Assembly (NCBI GenBank): GCA_048498955.1
Contig: JBEHWZ010000015.1
Location: 23,437 to 87,436 of the forward strand
DNA from: Verrucomicrobiota bacterium
Lineage (GTDB): Bacteria; Verrucomicrobiota; Verrucomicrobiia; Opitutales; Opitutaceae
DNA: 64,000 nucleotides
Direction: 5' to 3'
This document shows, in pieces, positions 11,083 through 18,672 of the stretch; the first letter of the stretch is position 1; each line of letters starts with the position of its first letter. A model generated the notes under the pieces. That model did no database searches, was not told the DNA's origin, and saw only the letters and a program-made list of their open reading frames with translations. The position numbers and the translations under genes were made by a program.

Positions 11083-12945
11083 TCACCGCGCCAGCTGCGC
11101 GAATACGTTCTCGAGCTGTCGCGTGAATCCCACTGCATCGCACAGCGGACTCTTGCGCATGCGCTCGCGGAGCGTGGCGCGCAGGGCGGCGCGGCGGGCG
11201 GGATCCAGCGTGGCTTCGCGGGCGATGCGGAGATAATCCGCGGGCGTCTGGGCGATCCACTCGGGCAGGCCGACGTGGGTGAGCAGGCTGGCGCCGACGC
11301 GGGCGGCGTGGACGCGGCCGGCGAGAGTCACGACCGGCACGCCCATCCAGAGCGCTTCACAGGTGGTGGTGGTGCCGTTGTAGGGGAAGGGATCGAGGGC
11401 AATGTCCACGCCGTGGTATAAACTTAAGTGGTCGGCGACGGAGAGCGCGGCGGCATTGCACGTCACGCGCTCAGCGGTGACTCCGGCCGCAGCGAAAGCG
11501 GCGTGTACTCTTGCGATGACTGCAGGTTCGTTCAGGCCGCGCGACTTCAGGAGCAGGCGCGAGGCGGGCACGGAGGCGAGCAGTTCGGCCCACAGTTGCA
11601 GGACCGCTGGCGTGACCTTGGCGAAATTGTTGAAACAACCGAACGTCACGGCGCCCGGTTCCGCGATCGGACGGACATTGACGGTCGGTGCGGCGGAGTC
11701 GGGTTGGTAGACGGAAAAATTGGCGGGAAGCCGGACGAGTTTCTCGGAGTGCCAGGCTTCGGTCGCGCCTTCGGGATCGCTGATCGCATCCGTCAGGCGG
11801 TAGTCGATCGCGGTGAGTCCGGTCGTGTTCGGGTAGCCGATCCAGGTGGCCTGCACCGAGGCGGGCCGGCGGGCCATCACAAGGAGACGGTGGCCTGCGG
11901 TGTGACCGGCGAGATCGACGAGCAGATCGAGCTGGTCCTGGCGGATGAGATCGGCCGCGGTGGCGTCGTTGAGCCGGGCGATGTCGCGCCAGTGCTCGAC
12001 CAGGCTACGCAGGCGGTCGGTGACGCGATCCGGTTCGCGGACGCTGGCGTAACCGAACACCTCGATGCGCGTTTTGTCATGCGCCGCGAGCACCGGCTCG
12101 ATGAAATAGGCGACCGCGTGGTGATTGAAATCGGGCGAGAGGTAGCCCACGCGCAGGCGGCGTCCGGCCGTCGCTTGCTGCGCCGGCGTCCGGGCGGGAG
12201 CAAGCTTCGCGGCGTGGAGTTCGTTCCAGCGCCGGTGCTCGGCGAACACGTCGGCCGGGTTGGTGTCCGGCAGAAAGTTCAGCGCGAAGAGCAGGTTGCT
12301 ATGCGTCTCCGGCGTGGGCTGGGCCGCGAGGGCCGCGCGGTAGTGGGCGACAGCCTCCGCGAGCAGTCCTTCGGTTTTGCAGAGTCGGCCGAGATTGTCG
12401 TGGGCCGCCGCATAGCCGGGGCGCAGCCGCAGGGCTTCCTGAAACGCGGCGCGCGCGGCGGCGCCTTGCCCGGCGGTGGCCAGCGCGTGGCCGAGAATGT
12501 TGTGCGCTTCGGGGCGTGCTGGCTCCAGCGCGATGGCGCGCTGGAAAGCGGCGATGGCGGAAGCGGTCTCTCCGGCTTCGAGGGAGGCGACGCCGAGATT
12601 CAGCCAGACCGGCGCATTCGCGGGTGCGAGCTCCGCGGCGAGGCGCAGTGCGGCGACGGCTTCGGCGTAGCGGCCGAGTGACTTCAGTACGTTGCCCGCC
12701 TGGTGATGCGCTTCCGCCAGCTTGGGATCGAGGGCGATGGCTTGCTGAAAAGCGGCGAGAGCGGCGTCCGGACGATTCGCGCCGCGCAGCGCGAGGCCGT
12801 GCAATTGGTGGACCGGCGCGGCCGCCGCGTTGGCCGGCACGCGGGCGAGAATCTGTTCGATCAGCGGCACCGCGTCCGCCGGCCGGCCGGCCCGCAAGTG
12901 GGCGAGAGCCTGGGCGTGGAGGGAAGCGGGGGATTGGTCACTCAT
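11083..12945 (-). CDS. TPR-repeat O-GlcNAc transferase-like protein (GT41/SPINDLY type)
   Basis: N-terminal TPRs; LRVGYLSPDFNHHAV, DLAGHT, TWIGYPNTTG, FGCFNNFAK, DPFPYNGTTTTCEALWMGVPVVT. Confidence 0.92.
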   Translation of the reverse strand: MSDQSPASLHAQALAHLRAGRPADAVPLIEQILARVPANAAAAPVHQLHGLALRGANRPDAALAAFQQAIALDPKLAEAHHQAGNVLKSLGRYAEAVAALRLAAELAPANAPVWLNLGVASLEAGETASAIAAFQRAIALEPARPEAHNILGHALATAGQGAAARAAFQEALRLRPGYAAAHDNLGRLCKTEGLLAEAVAHYRAALAAQPTPETHSNLLFALNFLPDTNPADVFAEHRRWNELHAAKLAPARTPAQQATAGRRLRVGYLSPDFNHHAVAYFIEPVLAAHDKTRIEVFGYASVREPDRVTDRLRSLVEHWRDIARLNDATAADLIRQDQLDLLVDLAGHTAGHRLLVMARRPASVQATWIGYPNTTGLTAIDYRLTDAISDPEGATEAWHSEKLVRLPANFSVYQPDSAAPTVNVRPIAEPGAVTFGCFNNFAKVTPAVLQLWAELLASVPASRLLLKSRGLNEPAVIARVHAAFAAAGVTAERVTCNAAALSVADHLSLYHGVDIALDPFPYNGTTTTCEALWMGVPVVTLAGRVHAARVGASLLTHVGLPEWIAQTPADYLRIAREATLDPARRAALRATLRERMRKSPLCDAVGFTRQLENVFAQLAR

Positions 12946-12990
12946 TGTTGATCGATGCCCATAGGCTATGTCGGGCTGAACTGCCTACGG

Positions 12991-13090
12991 CAATTTTTCA
13001 TTGTTCATCGTTCAATGTTCATTGGCTATTTCGAGCCGGAAGAGTGGTTCGAAATGATCAATGAACATTGAGCAATGAACGCTGAACAAT
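12991..13090. repeat. Inverted 7-bp-period array pair (CATTGTT/AATGAAC family)
   Basis: Left CATTGTT CATCGTT CAATGTT CATTGGC; right AATGATC AATGAAC ATTGAGC AATGAAC GCTGAAC. Confidence 0.85.
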
Positions 13091-13107
13091 CCTTCGGGGA
13101 TAGACGC

Positions 13108-13137
13108 AAAAAGCCTCCGACGGGGGGCCGGAGGCTT
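13108..13137 (-). terminator. Intrinsic terminator downstream of flagellins
   Basis: Stem aagcctccg/cggaggctt followed on the minus strand by a T-run. Confidence 0.75.
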
Positions 13138-13275
13138 CTTGGCGGATAGACTGTTGGCTCCTGTGAGCCTGGGGTGATCACGAGTCGGTCGCCGTTCCGT
13201 TCGCCCAGGACCGGCCGCCCTTGCGGGCGGCCGGCGTGGTTGGGCGAATCAGAACAACCACTGACTGGAGACCGG

Positions 13276-14088
13276 TTAACCGATGAGCTTCAGGGCAACC
13301 TGCGAGCTCTGGTTGGCCTGGGCCAGCATGGCGGTGCCAGACTGGACGAGGACGTTCCAACGTGCGAGCTGCGTGCTTTCCTCGGCGACGTCGACATCCG
13401 TGATACGGCTGTTGGCGGCTTCGAGGTTGGCCTTGTTGACCGTGAGCACTTCCGAGGCGAAGCCGAGGCGGCTCTGCTCAGCGCCGTTCTGGGCGCGGAA
13501 CGTGGCGACGTTCTGGATCGCATCGGTGATGTCGGACAGGTCGACGTCGGCGAGCGACGTGACGCTGGAGGCGGTGAGGGCACCGACGCCGGCGGACGAG
13601 CTCGACAGATCGCGGCCCGAGAGGGCGACGCTCTGCTGGCCGTCTTCGGACACCTGGACCGTGAGGCCGGTCGAACCGAACAGCGCGACGCTGTTGAAGG
13701 TTTCGCCGGTGAGGGAATCGAGTTCGCTCTTCAGCGCGGTGAACTCGGAATCATAGTTCGCGAGGTCGCTCGAGTTCTTGGTCGGGTCGGAGTAGAGGGT
13801 CTTCAGCTCGCTCATGCGATCGAGGACCTTGCCGGCGACCTTCATCACGCCGTCCTGCGACTGCAGGAACGACACGGTGTTTCCGATGTTGCTGGCAGCG
13901 GCGCCGGAACGCTTGGCCGCAGCAGACAGCTTCATGCTCACAGCGAGACCGCCCGCATCATCGGACGGATTGACGATTTTCGAACCGCTGGAGAGCCGGT
14001 TAAGGCTTTTTTGCAGCATGGAGTTCGAGGCAGACAGGTTGTTTGAGGCAACCGTGGCCGCGTAGTTGGTATTAATCACGACTGACAT
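13276..14088 (-). CDS. fliC: Flagellin (270 aa, minimal)
   Basis: MSVVINTN...LSSGSKIVNPSDDAGGLAVS; EAANSRITDVDVAEE...QANQ. Confidence 0.97.
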   Translation of the reverse strand: MSVVINTNYAATVASNNLSASNSMLQKSLNRLSSGSKIVNPSDDAGGLAVSMKLSAAAKRSGAAASNIGNTVSFLQSQDGVMKVAGKVLDRMSELKTLYSDPTKNSSDLANYDSEFTALKSELDSLTGETFNSVALFGSTGLTVQVSEDGQQSVALSGRDLSSSSAGVGALTASSVTSLADVDLSDITDAIQNVATFRAQNGAEQSRLGFASEVLTVNKANLEAANSRITDVDVAEESTQLARWNVLVQSGTAMLAQANQSSQVALKLIG

Positions 14089-14126
14089 GGTATCTATCCT
14101 TGATTTGTGCGACCTTCCGTCGTCGC
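14089..14126 (-). promoter_or_regulatory. CsrA/RsmA-type site pair in flagellin leader
   Basis: Minus strand gcgac-gACGGAag-gtcgc hairpin followed by tcAAGGAtagatacc-ATG. Confidence 0.65.
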
Positions 14127-14319
14127 CACGGACCTGGATTGAGAGCGCCGGGTCACGCTTTTCGAGGCGTATGCCTCAAAGTGGGCGGCACGTCACAGAC
14201 GCGCCGAAGGGGAAAAAGAACCATATAGACAACCGCACTTTTCTAGCGGGAACCGGCAATCACTCCGGTCCCCGCGGCGGAACTAACTAGCTAACTGACT
14301 TAACTGGCCGGCTCCGGGT

Positions 14320-15132
14320 TTAGCCCAAGAGCTTGAGCGCGACCTGGGCGCTCTGGTTGGCCTGCGAGAGCATCGCCGTGCCGGACTGGACGAGGACGTT
14401 CCAGCGGGCGAGCTGCGTGCTCTCCGAGGCGACGTCGACGTCGATGATGCGGCTGTTGGCGGCCTCGAGGTTGGCCTTGTTGGTCGTCAGGACCTCCGAG
14501 GCGAAGCCGAGGCGGCTCTGCTCGGCGCCGTTGACGGCGCGGAACGTGGCCACGTTCTGGATCGCATCGGTGATGTCATCGAGGTCGATGTCCGCGAGGG
14601 AGCTGATCGACGTGGAGCTCAGGGCGCCGATGCCATCGGTCGAGGACGAGAGGTCCTTGGCCGTGATGGTGACGGACGAGCTGCCGTCTTCCGAAACCGG
14701 AACCACCAGGTTGCCGGAGCCGAACAGGTCGACGCTGTTAAATTTGTTGTCGGTGAGGGACGCGAGTTCATCGCGCAGGGCGACGAATTCGGAATCGTAG
14801 TTGGCCTTATCGGTCGAGTTCTTGGTCGGGTCGGCGTAGAGGGTCTTGAGTTCGCCCATGCGCTCCAGGACCTTGCCGGTGACCTTCATCACGCCGTCCT
14901 GCGACTGCAGGAACGAGATGGAGTTGCCGATGTTGCTCGCGGCGGCGCCGGAGCGCTTGGCGGCAGCGGAGAGTTTCATCGAGACGGCGAGGCCGCCCGC
15001 ATCATCCGCAGGGTTGACGATTTTCGAGCCGCTCGAGAGACGGTTCATGCTCTTCTGGAGCATATCGTTCGAGGAGGCGAGGTTGTTCGCGGCGACGGTC
15101 GCAGCGAAGTTGGTGTTGATGACGACTGACAT
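14320..15132 (-). CDS. fliC: Flagellin (270 aa, minimal), paralog
   Basis: ATG at 15132, MSVVINTNFAA...; same N- and C-terminal flagellin motifs as its neighbour. Confidence 0.97.
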   Translation of the reverse strand: MSVVINTNFAATVAANNLASSNDMLQKSMNRLSSGSKIVNPADDAGGLAVSMKLSAAAKRSGAAASNIGNSISFLQSQDGVMKVTGKVLERMGELKTLYADPTKNSTDKANYDSEFVALRDELASLTDNKFNSVDLFGSGNLVVPVSEDGSSSVTITAKDLSSSTDGIGALSSTSISSLADIDLDDITDAIQNVATFRAVNGAEQSRLGFASEVLTTNKANLEAANSRIIDVDVASESTQLARWNVLVQSGTAMLSQANQSAQVALKLLG

Positions 15133-15173
15133 GGTGATCTTCCTTGATTTTAAACTGCGACGTCCGTGTCGCA
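15133..15173 (-). promoter_or_regulatory. CsrA/RsmA-type site pair in flagellin leader
   Basis: Minus strand tgcgac-ACGGAC-gtcgca hairpin followed by tcAAGGAagatcacc-ATG. Confidence 0.7.
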
Positions 15174-15235
15174 TTCGACTCGAGAGAAGCGGCTCTCGTG
15201 CTGTCCGGCCTTGGTTCTGATTCGCGGCACTGCAT

Positions 15236-15263
15236 CTAACGGCGCGGTTTCGAAAAACATTTA
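15236..15263 (-). promoter_or_regulatory. Putative sigma28 promoter of flagellin genes
   Basis: TAAA-N16-GCCGTTAG (spacer one base longer than consensus). Confidence 0.5.
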
Positions 15264-15389
15264 GCGAGTTGGCACGGATTTATTTTTTCGCACCGCGTTG
15301 CGCGCGGAATTTTTGCGCGCGGTTTTCCCTCGAAAAAACGGGGTCAAAAAACGGGCCAAAAAACGGCCTCAAAAAATGTTTTGCGGACT

Positions 15390-15415
15390 AAACTTTTAGG
15401 GGGGGTGGCCGATGA
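15390..15415 (+). promoter_or_regulatory. Putative sigma28 promoter of fliD
   Basis: TAAA-N14-GCCGATGA; implies fliD start at 15445 rather than 15412. Confidence 0.6.
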
Positions 15416-15444
15416 AGGAGTGGGGCAGTGTCCCCATCCTTATT

Positions 15445-17166
15445 ATGGCAGACTTATCACTCTCCGGACTCGCCTCAGGCCTCGATTGGAAGTCGTTGGT
15501 AGACCAACTGATGCAAATCGAAGCTACGCCCGTTACGCGCATGCAAACGGAGCAGGATAACAACACGAGCAAGTCCAATGCCCTGGACAATCTGGCGACC
15601 AAAATGAAGGCCCTTCAAACGGCCGCCCAGAACCTCAAGGATCCGACCAATTTTGGCACCCGCGTGGTCACCTCTTCGCTGACCGGTTCGACCTGGTCCC
15701 TCGCCTCCACCGCGGGTTCCGCGTCGAGCAGCCACACGATCTCCGTCAGCCAGCTCGCGACCAAGGCGAGCCGCGCGGGCACGACGAACATCACCGGCGG
15801 CATCGCCGCTACGAGTGACGTCTCGGGCGTCACGCTCGCGACGATGCGCACCGCGTCGTACGTCACCGCCGGCACTTTTTCGATCAACGGCCAGAAGATC
15901 ACCGTCGCCACCACCGATTCGCTGCAGAGCGTGTTCAACGCGATCGCCACCGCGACCAACAACGACGTCACCGGCAGCTACGACCCGGTGACGGACAAGA
16001 TTTCGCTCACGAGCGCGTCGAACGCGAAGATCGTCCTCGGCGCCGCGAACGACACCAGCAACGTGCTCTCCGTGCTGAAGCTCGCGAACAACGACAGCGA
16101 CACCGTCACCAGCTACGGCACGCTCGGCGCCGCGCGCACGAACAGCACGCTCGCCAACACCGGCTTCAACACCGCGGTCACCGCGGTCGACGGCAGCGGC
16201 GCCGGCACTTTCTCGATCAACGGCGTGGCGATCAGCTACAACGTCAACACGGACTCGCTCAGCTCGCTCATGAGCCGCATCAACGGCTCCGGCGCGGGCG
16301 TGACGGTCTCCTACGACGCGACCAACGACCGGATGAACCTCGTCAACAACACCACCGGCGACGTGGGCATCACGCTCAGCGAATCGACCGGCGGCATCCT
16401 CGGCGCGCTCGGCCTGACCAGCGGCTACACCGCCACGCGCGGGCAGAACGCGCAGTATTCCGTCGACGGCGGCCCGACGCTGATGAGCAACAGCAACACG
16501 CTCGACGCCTCCGCGCTCGGCATTGCCGGCCTGTCCGTCACGGTCGACAGCCAGACGACCCAGAAGATCACCGTCGGCGCCGACACCGCCGGCATGAAGA
16601 GCAACATCAATGCCTTCATCACGGCGTACAATGGCGTGCAAACCTTCATCGACACCGTGACGAAGGTCACGACGACCTCCGGCAAGGTCACGACCTCCAT
16701 TCTCTCCGACAATCGCGACATCCAGGACTGGGCGAGCCAGCTGCGCAAAATCGCCTTCGATACCGTCGGCGGCGCGGGCACGATCGACCGCATCGACGAC
16801 CTCGGCCTCGATCTCGACCAGAACGGCCAGATGTCGATCAAGGATTCCACCAAGCTGGATGCCGCGCTCGCGAACCAAAGCGATGACATCGAGAAGTTTT
16901 TCTCCAGCACGACCAGCGGGTTTGGCGCGAAGTTCGACACCCGCCTGACCTCGCTGCTGAAGCTCGACACCGATTCGCAGGATCGCCTGACGAAGGCCAA
17001 CGCGAGCCTGGACGACCAGATCGCCGCCCTGCAGCGCCGCCTCGACCAGCAGCGCGAGTTGCTGACCAACAGTTTCATTGCCATGGAGTCTGCGCAGTCC
17101 TCAATCAAGACCCAGTCGGCCGCGCTTACCAACGCCTTCAGTTCCAGCTCCAGCAGCTCCAAGTGA
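15445..17166 (+). CDS. fliD: Flagellar filament cap protein FliD
   Basis: MADLSLSGLASGLDWKSLVDQLM; SVSQLATKA; GQNAQYSVDG; C-terminal LTNSFIAMESA. Confidence 0.93.
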   Translation: MADLSLSGLASGLDWKSLVDQLMQIEATPVTRMQTEQDNNTSKSNALDNLATKMKALQTAAQNLKDPTNFGTRVVTSSLTGSTWSLASTAGSASSSHTISVSQLATKASRAGTTNITGGIAATSDVSGVTLATMRTASYVTAGTFSINGQKITVATTDSLQSVFNAIATATNNDVTGSYDPVTDKISLTSASNAKIVLGAANDTSNVLSVLKLANNDSDTVTSYGTLGAARTNSTLANTGFNTAVTAVDGSGAGTFSINGVAISYNVNTDSLSSLMSRINGSGAGVTVSYDATNDRMNLVNNTTGDVGITLSESTGGILGALGLTSGYTATRGQNAQYSVDGGPTLMSNSNTLDASALGIAGLSVTVDSQTTQKITVGADTAGMKSNINAFITAYNGVQTFIDTVTKVTTTSGKVTTSILSDNRDIQDWASQLRKIAFDTVGGAGTIDRIDDLGLDLDQNGQMSIKDSTKLDAALANQSDDIEKFFSSTTSGFGAKFDTRLTSLLKLDTDSQDRLTKANASLDDQIAALQRRLDQQRELLTNSFIAMESAQSSIKTQSAALTNAFSSSSSSSK

Positions 17167-18243: not shown

Positions 18244-18672
18244 ATGTACGCCCAGGATTACGCGCGGGCTTACCGCGCCAATGCGATCCTCACCGCCAGC
18301 CCGGGGCAGTTGGTCCTGATGCTTTTCGACGGCGCCCTCAAGGCGCTGGCGATCGCGCGGACCGCCTGCGACGATCCGGCCCAGGATCCGCGCCGCTTCG
18401 AGATCATCAACACCCAGCTGGTCAAGGCGCAGAAGATCATCGCCGAGTTGCAGGGGACCTTGAACCTCGAGGCCGGCGGCGAATTCGCCCAGACGATGTA
18501 CCGGCTCTACGATTATTACGACCGCCGCCTCATGGAGGCCAATATGAAGAAGCAAAGCGCCCCGATCGCCGAGGTCGAGCGTCTGCTCGGGGATGTCCGC
18601 GGCGCTTGGGCGGAAATGCTCAACGACAAGGACAAGGCCGCCGCCACGCCAGCCTTGCACCAGGTAGCCTGA
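18244..18672 (+). CDS. fliS: Flagellin export chaperone FliS
   Basis: AYRANAILTASPGQLVLMLFDGA; IIAELQGTLNLEAGGEFAQTMYRLYDY; AWAEM. Confidence 0.95.
   Translation: MYAQDYARAYRANAILTASPGQLVLMLFDGALKALAIARTACDDPAQDPRRFEIINTQLVKAQKIIAELQGTLNLEAGGEFAQTMYRLYDYYDRRLMEANMKKQSAPIAEVERLLGDVRGAWAEMLNDKDKAAATPALHQVA

What the first reader, a model, noticed from the sequence alone, without database searches (positions are those of the whole stretch)
14089..15173. Conserved CsrA-type GGA-loop hairpins in both flagellin leaders
The two leaders are otherwise dissimilar but each keeps GCGAC-(ACGGA loop)-GTCGC followed by AATCAAGGA a few nt before the ATG (14089-14126, 15133-15173). This matches the two-site CsrA architecture known for B. 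subtilis hag. Most other genes here lack AGGA upstream of their starts, so the motif stands out. No csrA or fliW is in this window.
Basis: partly seen in the sequence, partly recalled or inferred. Interest (0 to 1): 0.7.

Follow-up and report, generated by a model that had tools for sequence, protein, structure and literature searches.

The report
CsrA-type operators in Opitutaceae flagellin leaders
Both flagellin mRNAs of this Verrucomicrobiota (Opitutaceae) bacterium carry a conserved two-site docking platform for the translational repressor CsrA, the same design known from Bacillus and Campylobacter; csrA and fliW look absent only because they fall in an assembly gap.

Summary
Each of two tandem flagellin genes (minus strand) has a 5-6 bp hairpin with an A/GACGGA loop. 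An invariant AUCAAGGA follows, 8 nt before the AUG. The strict pattern hits twice in the window, against 0.00 expected.

In 70 distinct Opitutaceae flagellin leaders, CGGA and AUCAAGGA never change. All five stem pairs show compensatory changes. The two GGA motifs lie 18-23 nt apart, which suits one CsrA dimer.

csrA and fliW are not in the assembly. However, contig C15 ends inside flgL and contig C21 starts inside a third flagellin gene. In the nearest relatives these two genes flank about 1.26 kb holding fliW and csrA, and all five nearest relatives tested have csrA.

In a sample of 101 genomes of the family, 48 of 51 genomes with the leader motif have fliW and csrA. The three exceptions, including this genome, are explained by missing sequence.

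This is a new member of a known kind: the FliW-CsrA-flagellin checkpoint, not yet described for Verrucomicrobiota and absent from Rfam. The more novel reading, a different binding protein, is unlikely. Binding and regulation remain untested.

The parts
14320..15132 (-). flaB: upstream flagellin gene of the tandem pair, 270 aa, with a type-1 leader
   Evidence: Translation. Pfam Flagellin_N and Flagellin_C.
13276..14088 (-). flaA: downstream flagellin gene, 270 aa, 81% identical to flaB, with a type-2 leader
15156..15173 (-). flaB site 1: hairpin UGCGAC-ACGGAC-GUCGCA with a hexaloop; GGA at 15163-15165
   Evidence: Stem covariation.
15141..15148 (-). flaB site 2: invariant AUCAAGGA overlapping the Shine-Dalgarno. 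GGA is at 15141-15143, 8 nt before the AUG and 22 nt after the site-1 GGA.
   Evidence: Unpaired in the MFE fold.
14109..14126 (-). flaA site 1: hairpin GCGAC-GACGGAAG-GUCGC with an octaloop; GGA at 14116-14118
14097..14104 (-). flaA site 2: invariant AUCAAGGA overlapping the Shine-Dalgarno. GGA is at 14097-14099, 8 nt before the AUG and 19 nt after the site-1 GGA.
15177..15205 (-). flaB upstream stem-loop (inner stem CGAGAG/CUCUCG) just 5' of site 1; role unknown
   Evidence: MFE fold. An upstream helix is present in 59 of 70 leader folds.
14131..14154 (-). flaA upstream stem-loop (GACCCGG...CCAGGUC) abutting site 1
   Evidence: Consensus fold of the type-2 leaders shows compensatory pairs, for example GC:18/AU:15 and CG:19/UA:13.
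15236..15263 (-). Sigma-28-like promoter of flaB, TAAA-N16-GCCGTTAG. It predicts a 5' UTR of roughly 95 nt.
   Evidence: Sequence. TAAA-N15/16-(G/C)NCG(A/T)TA recurs at the same distance in type-1 leaders of relatives. The transcription start is not mapped.

Best explanation
Each flagellin mRNA leader is a two-site operator for the translational repressor CsrA.

- Inferred mechanism: one CsrA dimer bridges the GGA in the loop of the short hairpin (site 1) and the GGA inside the invariant AUCAAGGA that overlaps the Shine-Dalgarno (site 2). This blocks 30S binding.
- Inferred by homology with Bacillus subtilis and Campylobacter jejuni: FliW relieves the repression. FliW is held by unsecreted flagellin and freed when the hook is complete and flagellin is exported. 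Flagellin translation is therefore tied to assembly.
- Shown here: the motifs, their RNA-level conservation and covariation, their spacing, a sigma-28-type promoter upstream of flaB, and the co-occurrence of the motif with adjacent fliW-csrA genes in relatives.
- Also shown: the fliW-csrA position is an assembly gap in this genome.
- Not shown: that this strain encodes csrA, that CsrA binds these leaders, and that translation changes.
For: 1. Motifs sit at the stated coordinates, with 2 hits against 0.00 expected.

2. In 70 distinct leaders from about 35 Opitutaceae genomes, CGGA in the loop and AUCAAGGA are invariant. All 5 stem pairs have compensatory changes, and 99.1% of cells are paired against 85.3% in shuffles (0 of 500 shuffles reach this). 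Sliding the partner column drops pairing to 9-53%.

3. The flaB loop and flanks read ACA-C-GGA-C-GU. This keeps the ACA, GGA and GU that were 100% or nearly 100% conserved in the SELEX consensus RUACARGGAUGU, and it is a hexaloop like most SELEX ligands (PMC7652899).

4. GGA-to-GGA spacing is 22 nt (flaB) and 19 nt (flaA), and 18-23 nt in 68 of 70 leaders. Dugar et al. give 18 nt as the optimal intersite distance and 21 nt for C. jejuni flaA (PMC4894983).

5. In the 101 sampled family genomes, fliW and csrA are adjacent and co-occur in 60, and flagellin is present in 65. A flagellin-specific leader pattern is found in 51 genomes, with 0 hits for the reversed control. Of these 51, 48 have fliW and csrA.

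6. All 5 nearest relatives (flagellin 80-87% identical) have csrA.

7. C15:89994-90719 is the end of that contig and lies inside flgL; it matches L095 43-768 at 85%. C21:1-662 is the start of that contig and lies inside the third flagellin; it matches L095 2027-2688 at 91%. The 1258 nt between them in L095 carry the end of flgL, fliW, csrA and the start of the third flagellin.

8. The relative's CsrA scores above the TIGR00202 cut-off. Its best solved relatives are 5DMB_D and B. subtilis 1T3O. From my own knowledge, not checked here, 5DMB is the FliW-bound Geobacillus CsrA.

9. SD-like motifs are at background level upstream of other genes (8% against 9%). An 8-nt invariant SD region is therefore more than a ribosome site.
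Against: - No csrA or fliW is in the assembled genome. Their presence rests on synteny, because the gap could not be closed.
- The two sampled genomes of the same genus lack flagellin, fliW and csrA altogether, so loss of this gene set does occur in the lineage.
- Folding energy of the leaders is not better than that of shuffles.
- There are no binding or expression data.
Confidence: 0.85

Rival explanations
1. The strain truly lacks CsrA and FliW, and a different, unidentified RNA-binding protein reads the GGA hairpin and the SD site.
For: No CsrA, FliW or FlbT is found in a 95%-complete assembly. Three unannotated small ORFs lie in the fliD-fliS cluster.
Against: The contig breaks fall exactly on the two genes that flank fliW-csrA in relatives. 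A deletion would give a continuous contig, not two contig ends. The motif is identical to that of relatives that do have csrA. The other two motif-positive genomes without csrA also lack flgL, so a contig is missing there as well.
Confidence: 0.04
2. The hairpin is only a structural element of the mRNA, such as a stabiliser against RNases or a spacer. AUCAAGGA is only a strong Shine-Dalgarno needed for a very highly expressed gene in a genome that rarely uses SD. No repressor is involved.
For: Flagellin is highly expressed. SD motifs are otherwise at background. Upstream stem-loops also exist in these leaders.
Against: A stabiliser hairpin needs a conserved stem, not an invariant CGGA loop with a freely covarying stem. 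The hairpin is not at the predicted 5' end. The fixed 18-23 nt spacing of two GGA motifs and the co-occurrence with csrA/fliW would be left unexplained.
Confidence: 0.07
3. The inverted repeat is a DNA operator for a transcription factor, or an attenuator/terminator, rather than an RNA protein-binding site.
For: It is a short GC-rich inverted repeat between promoter and start codon.
Against: - Stems change by compensatory substitutions and include G-U pairs, which make sense only in RNA.
- The conserved part is the asymmetric loop, not the arms.
- No U-run follows the hairpin, and the scan listed no terminator-like site at either hairpin.
- The SD is not sequestered in the MFE fold of the flaB leader; in flaA the MFE fold weakly pairs part of it.
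Confidence: 0.03

Closest known systems
Bacillus subtilis hag leader with CsrA-FliW-Hag partner switch (Yakhnin 2007 and Mukherjee 2011, as cited in PMC7652899 and PMC13443453)
   Same: - The gene is a late flagellin gene; flaB has a sigma-28/sigma-D type promoter.
- There are two GGA sites, one upstream and one overlapping the SD.
- In relatives fliW and csrA are adjacent, downstream of flgL.
- The relatives' CsrA is most similar to solved Bacillus and Geobacillus CsrA.
   Different: - The phylum is different (Verrucomicrobiota).
- Two tandem flagellin genes each have their own operator class: a hexaloop ACGGAC and an octaloop GACGGAWR.
- In the two relatives read (L095, L110), a third flagellin gene follows csrA by only about 12-16 nt and has no such leader.
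- The genome otherwise shows SD motifs at background level.
- Binding is untested.
Campylobacter jejuni flaA 5' UTR (Dugar et al. 2016, PMC4894983)
   Same: Two ANGGA motifs, the second covering the ribosome-binding site. The structure is supported by compensatory changes. Spacing is 21 nt there and 19-22 nt here. The first site is a hexaloop.
   Different: In C. jejuni both motifs lie in stem-loops and fliW is not next to csrA. Here site 2 is predicted to be single-stranded in flaB. mRNA localisation and CsrA titration by the leader are not assessed here.
SELEX consensus for a high-affinity CsrA site, RUACARGGAUGU in a hexaloop hairpin (Dubey 2005, as cited in PMC7652899)
   Same: flaB site 1 reads GACACGGACGUC. 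ACA, GGA and GU are kept, the loop is a hexaloop, and the stem is short.
   Different: C replaces R before GGA, and C replaces U after it. The stem has 5-6 pairs, slightly longer than most SELEX ligands.

Membership tests
CsrA/RsmA two-site translational operator | GGA (A(N)GGA) exposed in the loop of a short hairpin | tested here: met
   Loops are ACGGAC (flaB) and GACGGAAG (flaA). The GGA is in a hairpin loop in 59 of 70 MFE folds. All 5 stem pairs covary.
CsrA/RsmA two-site translational operator | A second GGA overlapping the Shine-Dalgarno or start region | tested here: met
   AUCAAGGA is invariant in 70 leaders. Its GGA ends 8 nt before the AUG in both genes here, and 6-11 nt before it in relatives.
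CsrA/RsmA two-site translational operator | Spacing between sites that one dimer can bridge (optimum about 18 nt) | tested here: met
   19 nt and 22 nt here; 18-23 nt in 68 of 70 leaders. Reference values come from PMC4894983.
CsrA/RsmA two-site translational operator | A csrA gene in the same genome | tested here: inconclusive
   Not in the assembly. The syntenic position is a gap of about 1.26 kb between the end of C15 and the start of C21. All 5 nearest relatives have csrA.
CsrA/RsmA two-site translational operator | CsrA binds the RNA and represses translation | not testable with these tools
   Needs EMSA, toeprinting or reporter assays.
FliW-CsrA-flagellin partner-switch checkpoint | A fliW gene present, typically next to csrA | tested here: inconclusive
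   Not in the assembly. It would lie in the same gap. fliW is adjacent to csrA in all 60 positive genomes of the family sample.
FliW-CsrA-flagellin partner-switch checkpoint | The regulated target is the flagellin mRNA, and the motif co-occurs with the module across relatives | tested here: met
   The motif is found only upstream of flagellin genes. It is in 51 of 101 genomes, 48 of them with fliW and csrA, and in none of the genomes without flagellin. The reversed control gave 0 hits.
FliW-CsrA-flagellin partner-switch checkpoint | FliW binds the flagellin C-terminal region | not tested
   The flagellins are homologous to B. subtilis Hag, including chains of 6GOW and 5MAW. From my own knowledge, not checked here, these are the Hag-FliW and Hag-FliS complexes. 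The C-terminus keeps a ...MLxQANQ... stretch. The interface residues were not compared.
FlbT/FlaF flagellin mRNA control (Alphaproteobacteria) | An flbT gene in the genome | tested here: not met
   PF07378 is not found in the genome, while the Caulobacter control is positive.

The most novel reading that the evidence does not exclude
This strain really has lost fliW and csrA, as its two aflagellate genus-mates have, while keeping flagella and the intact two-site leaders. An unrelated protein, or the ribosome itself, would then read the GGA hairpin.
Probability: 0.04. Interest if true: 0.7.

Novelty: new member of a known kind. Interest (0 to 1): 0.3.

Why it matters
- It extends the FliW-CsrA-flagellin checkpoint to Verrucomicrobiota (Opitutaceae). 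The checkpoint is so far documented in Bacillota, Campylobacterota, spirochaetes and Geobacter.
- The RNA element is unusually clean, covariation-supported and not in Rfam.
- There are two leader classes, a hexaloop and an octaloop, on tandem flagellin genes.
- SD motifs are otherwise at background in this genome, so the system could help separate CsrA-site constraints from ribosome-site constraints.
- It is a caution for genome scans: the 'missing' regulator was an assembly gap flanked by flagellin-family genes (flgL and a flagellin paralogue).

Tried and rejected
- Rfam search of 12000-17000 at E<=1 gave only a spurious mir-598 hit.
- FlbT as an alternative flagellin mRNA regulator is absent.
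- A loose genome-wide scan (any 5-bp hairpin with GGA in the loop, then A[AG]GGA, then a start codon) gave 103 hits, mostly inside genes. It is not informative for other CsrA targets.
- CGGA-N6-30-ATCAAGGA gave 35 hits genome-wide. Only the two flagellin leaders have the hairpin.
- Folding-energy z-scores of the leaders are not significant, so the case rests on covariation.
An exact-word scan of metagenome contigs with the C15 end found nothing.
- The same scan with the C21 start found four contigs (L107-L110). L107 and L110 span flgL through to the third flagellin; L110, read for ORFs, carries flgL-fliW-csrA-fla3. They are only 71-90% identical to this genome apart from a 92-nt identical stretch, so they are related strains and not the missing piece.
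- No promoter could be assigned to flaA. No TAAA-N15-17-GCCGATA-like site lies upstream of it and there is no sigma-70-like hit.
- No covariance model was built, because the pattern searches already answered the distribution question.

Full report
**What is there.** The window is G000:C15:23437-87436 of a 4.59 Mb, 26-contig genome, 95% complete. The closest public flagellin loci are all Opitutaceae/Opitutales (Verrucomicrobiota). Two tandem flagellin genes lie on the minus strand:
- flaB, 14320-15132.
- flaA, 13276-14088, 81% identical to flaB.

fliD (15412-17166) is divergent from them and fliS is at 18244-18672. A TPR-GT41 glycosyltransferase gene (11083-12945) lies downstream of flaA.

**Observation.** On the minus strand the leaders read:
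- flaA: ...GGCGAC-GACGGAAG-GUCGC-ACAA-AUCAAGGA-UAGAUACC-AUG.
- flaB: ...UGCGAC-ACGGAC-GUCGCA-GUUUAAA-AUCAAGGA-AGAUCACC-AUG.

The strict pattern hits exactly these two places in the window, with 0.00 expected. Upstream of the hairpin the two leaders are no more alike than shuffles (55 identities against 51.3 +/- 2.4). The core shares 36 of 47. Both hairpins appear in the MFE folds, but the energies are unremarkable.

**Conservation.** I collected 70 distinct flagellin leaders from about 35 Opitutaceae genomes.
- The only invariant columns are CGGA in the loop and AUCAAGGA.
- The stem changes freely but stays paired: GCGAC/GUCGC, GCGGC/GCCGC, GAGGC/GCCUC, GUGGC/GCCAC, CCCU/AGGG.
- All five pairs show changes on both sides. 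99.1% of cells pair, against 85.3% in column shuffles (0 of 500 shuffles reach this).
- Sliding the partner by 1-3 columns drops pairing to 9-53%.
- G-U pairs occur, so the constraint acts on RNA, not on a DNA palindrome.

The leaders fall into two classes that are conserved across genomes:
- Type 1 (first gene, as flaB): hexaloop ACGGAC, SD region AUCAAGGAAGAU.
- Type 2 (second gene, as flaA): octaloop GACGGAWR, SD region AUCAAGGAUAGAU or AAAGAU.

A further stem-loop directly upstream is also supported by compensatory changes in type 2.

**Fit to CsrA sites.** The SELEX consensus is RUACARGGAUGU. ACA and GGA are 100% conserved and GU nearly so. Most ligands are hexaloops on short stems (PMC7652899). 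flaB site 1 reads GAC-ACGGAC-GUC, which keeps ACA, GGA and GU in a hexaloop.

The two GGA motifs are 22 nt (flaB) and 19 nt (flaA) apart, and 18-23 nt apart in 68 of 70 leaders. Dugar et al. quote 18 nt as the optimal intersite distance for a CsrA dimer and 21 nt for C. jejuni flaA (PMC4894983). B. subtilis CsrA binds two GGA-containing sites in the hag leader, one at the SD (PMC13443453; PMC7652899).

flaB also has a sigma-28-type promoter, TAAA-N16-GCCGTTAG (15263-15236). The same promoter recurs at that distance in type-1 leaders of relatives. This fits a late flagellar gene like hag.

**Where is CsrA?** The assembly has no Pfam CsrA, FliW or FlbT. tblastn with a relative's CsrA and FliW also finds nothing better than E = 0.09.

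In the 101 sampled genomes of the family, fliW and csrA are adjacent and co-occur in 60, and flagellin is present in 65. In relatives the gene order is flgL - fliW - csrA - third flagellin (about 50% identical to flaB), all on one strand.

In this genome:
- FlgL is cut off by the end of contig C15. C15:89994-90719 matches L095 43-768 at 85%. The protein covers residues 9-249 of 306.
- The third flagellin is cut off by the start of contig C21. C21:1-662 matches L095 2027-2688 at 91%. The protein starts at residue 72.
- The 1258 nt between these matches in L095 encode the end of flgL, FliW, CsrA (100 aa) and the flagellin N-terminus.

The L095 CsrA scores above the TIGR00202 cut-off. Its best solved relatives are 5DMB_D and B. 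subtilis 1T3O; from my own knowledge, not checked here, 5DMB is the FliW-bound Geobacillus CsrA. All five nearest relatives (flagellin 80-87% identical, near-identical leaders) have csrA.

A deletion would leave a continuous contig. Two contig ends at the two flanking genes mean unassembled sequence. The smallest contig kept in this assembly is 5.2 kb, so a fragment of about 1.3 kb would have been dropped.

**Co-occurrence.** A flagellin-specific leader pattern (CGGA-N6-30-ATCAAGGA-N5-16-ATGYCNGTNGT) is present in 51 of 101 family genomes, with 0 hits for the reversed control. It is absent from every genome without flagellin. Of the 51, 48 have fliW and csrA. The exceptions are G000, G020 and G063. 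The latter two also lack flgL, which I take to be indispensable for filament assembly (from my own knowledge), so a contig is missing there too.

**Mechanism, with status.**
- Shown: motifs, RNA-level selection, spacing, promoter type, and linkage with fliW-csrA in relatives.
- Inferred: a CsrA dimer bridges site 1 and site 2 and occludes the ribosome-binding site. FliW antagonises CsrA and is itself titrated by unsecreted flagellin. Translation then rises once the hook-basal body exports flagellin (partner switch; PMC7652899, PMC4894983).
- Supporting context: SD-like motifs are at background upstream of other genes in this genome (8% against 9%, crude start calls). The 8-nt invariance at the SD is therefore better explained by a protein site than by ribosome binding alone.

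**Rivals.**
- A different binding protein in a csrA-less strain (0.04).
- A purely structural hairpin plus a strong SD (0.07).
- A DNA operator or attenuator (0.03).

The invariant loop with a covarying stem, the G-U pairs, the fixed spacing, the absence of a U-run and the contig-end evidence speak against each of them in turn.

**Novelty.** I found no paper linking FliW or CsrA regulation to Verrucomicrobiota. No Rfam family matches. The mechanism is well known elsewhere, so this is a new member of a known kind, of moderate-to-low interest. Its hoped-for 'no CsrA' twist is an assembly artefact.

**Limits.** The metagenome contigs recovered (L107-L110) come from related strains; L107 and L110 span flgL to the third flagellin, and L110, read for ORFs, carries flgL-fliW-csrA-fla3. 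The transcription starts and the flaA promoter are unresolved.

Noticed in passing
Outside the window: G000:C15:89994-90719 (contig end) and G000:C21:1-662 (contig start): The assembly breaks inside flgL and inside a third flagellin gene. The missing stretch of about 1.26 kb holds fliW-csrA in the nearest relatives. C15 and C21 are therefore neighbours.
   Followed up: yes
L095:1501-2694, and likewise L110 (reverse complement): In these two relatives a third, divergent flagellin gene starts only about 12-16 nt after the csrA stop and has no GGA-hairpin leader. It is probably co-transcribed with csrA and escapes this control.
   Followed up: partly
Whole genome G000: SD core motifs (GGAG, AGGA, GAGG) at -17..-5 of the first candidate start occur in 8% of 2274 high-GC3 ORFs, against 9% at random in-gene positions. 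SD-led initiation seems rare here. Start calls are crude, and no 16S 3' end is in the assembly to check the anti-SD.
   Followed up: partly
window 15321-15372 (fliD-flaB intergenic): Four A6 tracts spaced 12-13 bp apart (AAAAAACGGGGTC, AAAAAACGGGCC, AAAAAACGGCCTC, AAAAAATG) lie between the divergent fliD and flaB promoters. This may be bent DNA or a regulator array.
   Followed up: no
window 14233-14262 (minus strand) and 14180-14205: GC-rich hairpins lie between the flaB stop and the flaA leader (GCGGGGACCGG...CCGGUUCCCGC and GGCGCG...CGUGCC followed by UUUG). They look terminator-like but lack a good U-run. Whether flaA has its own promoter is unresolved.
   Followed up: partly
Same-genus genomes G043 and G091: Both sampled genus-mates (99% complete) lack flagellin, fliW and csrA altogether. 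Motility genes vary within the genus.
   Followed up: no
window 11083-12945 (minus strand): A 620-aa TPR plus GT41-family glycosyltransferase gene sits directly downstream of flaA. It is a candidate flagellin glycosyltransferase.
   Followed up: no
L052:1440-1503 (Pedosphaera MAG) and L040, L041, L043 (marine Opitutia MAGs): More distant Verrucomicrobiota flagellin leaders have other GGA arrangements. One is GACUC-AUGGAAG-GAGUC, where the SD GGA itself sits in a hairpin loop. Another is AAUCAUGGAGGAU. CsrA-type control may be phylum-wide with different architectures.
   Followed up: no
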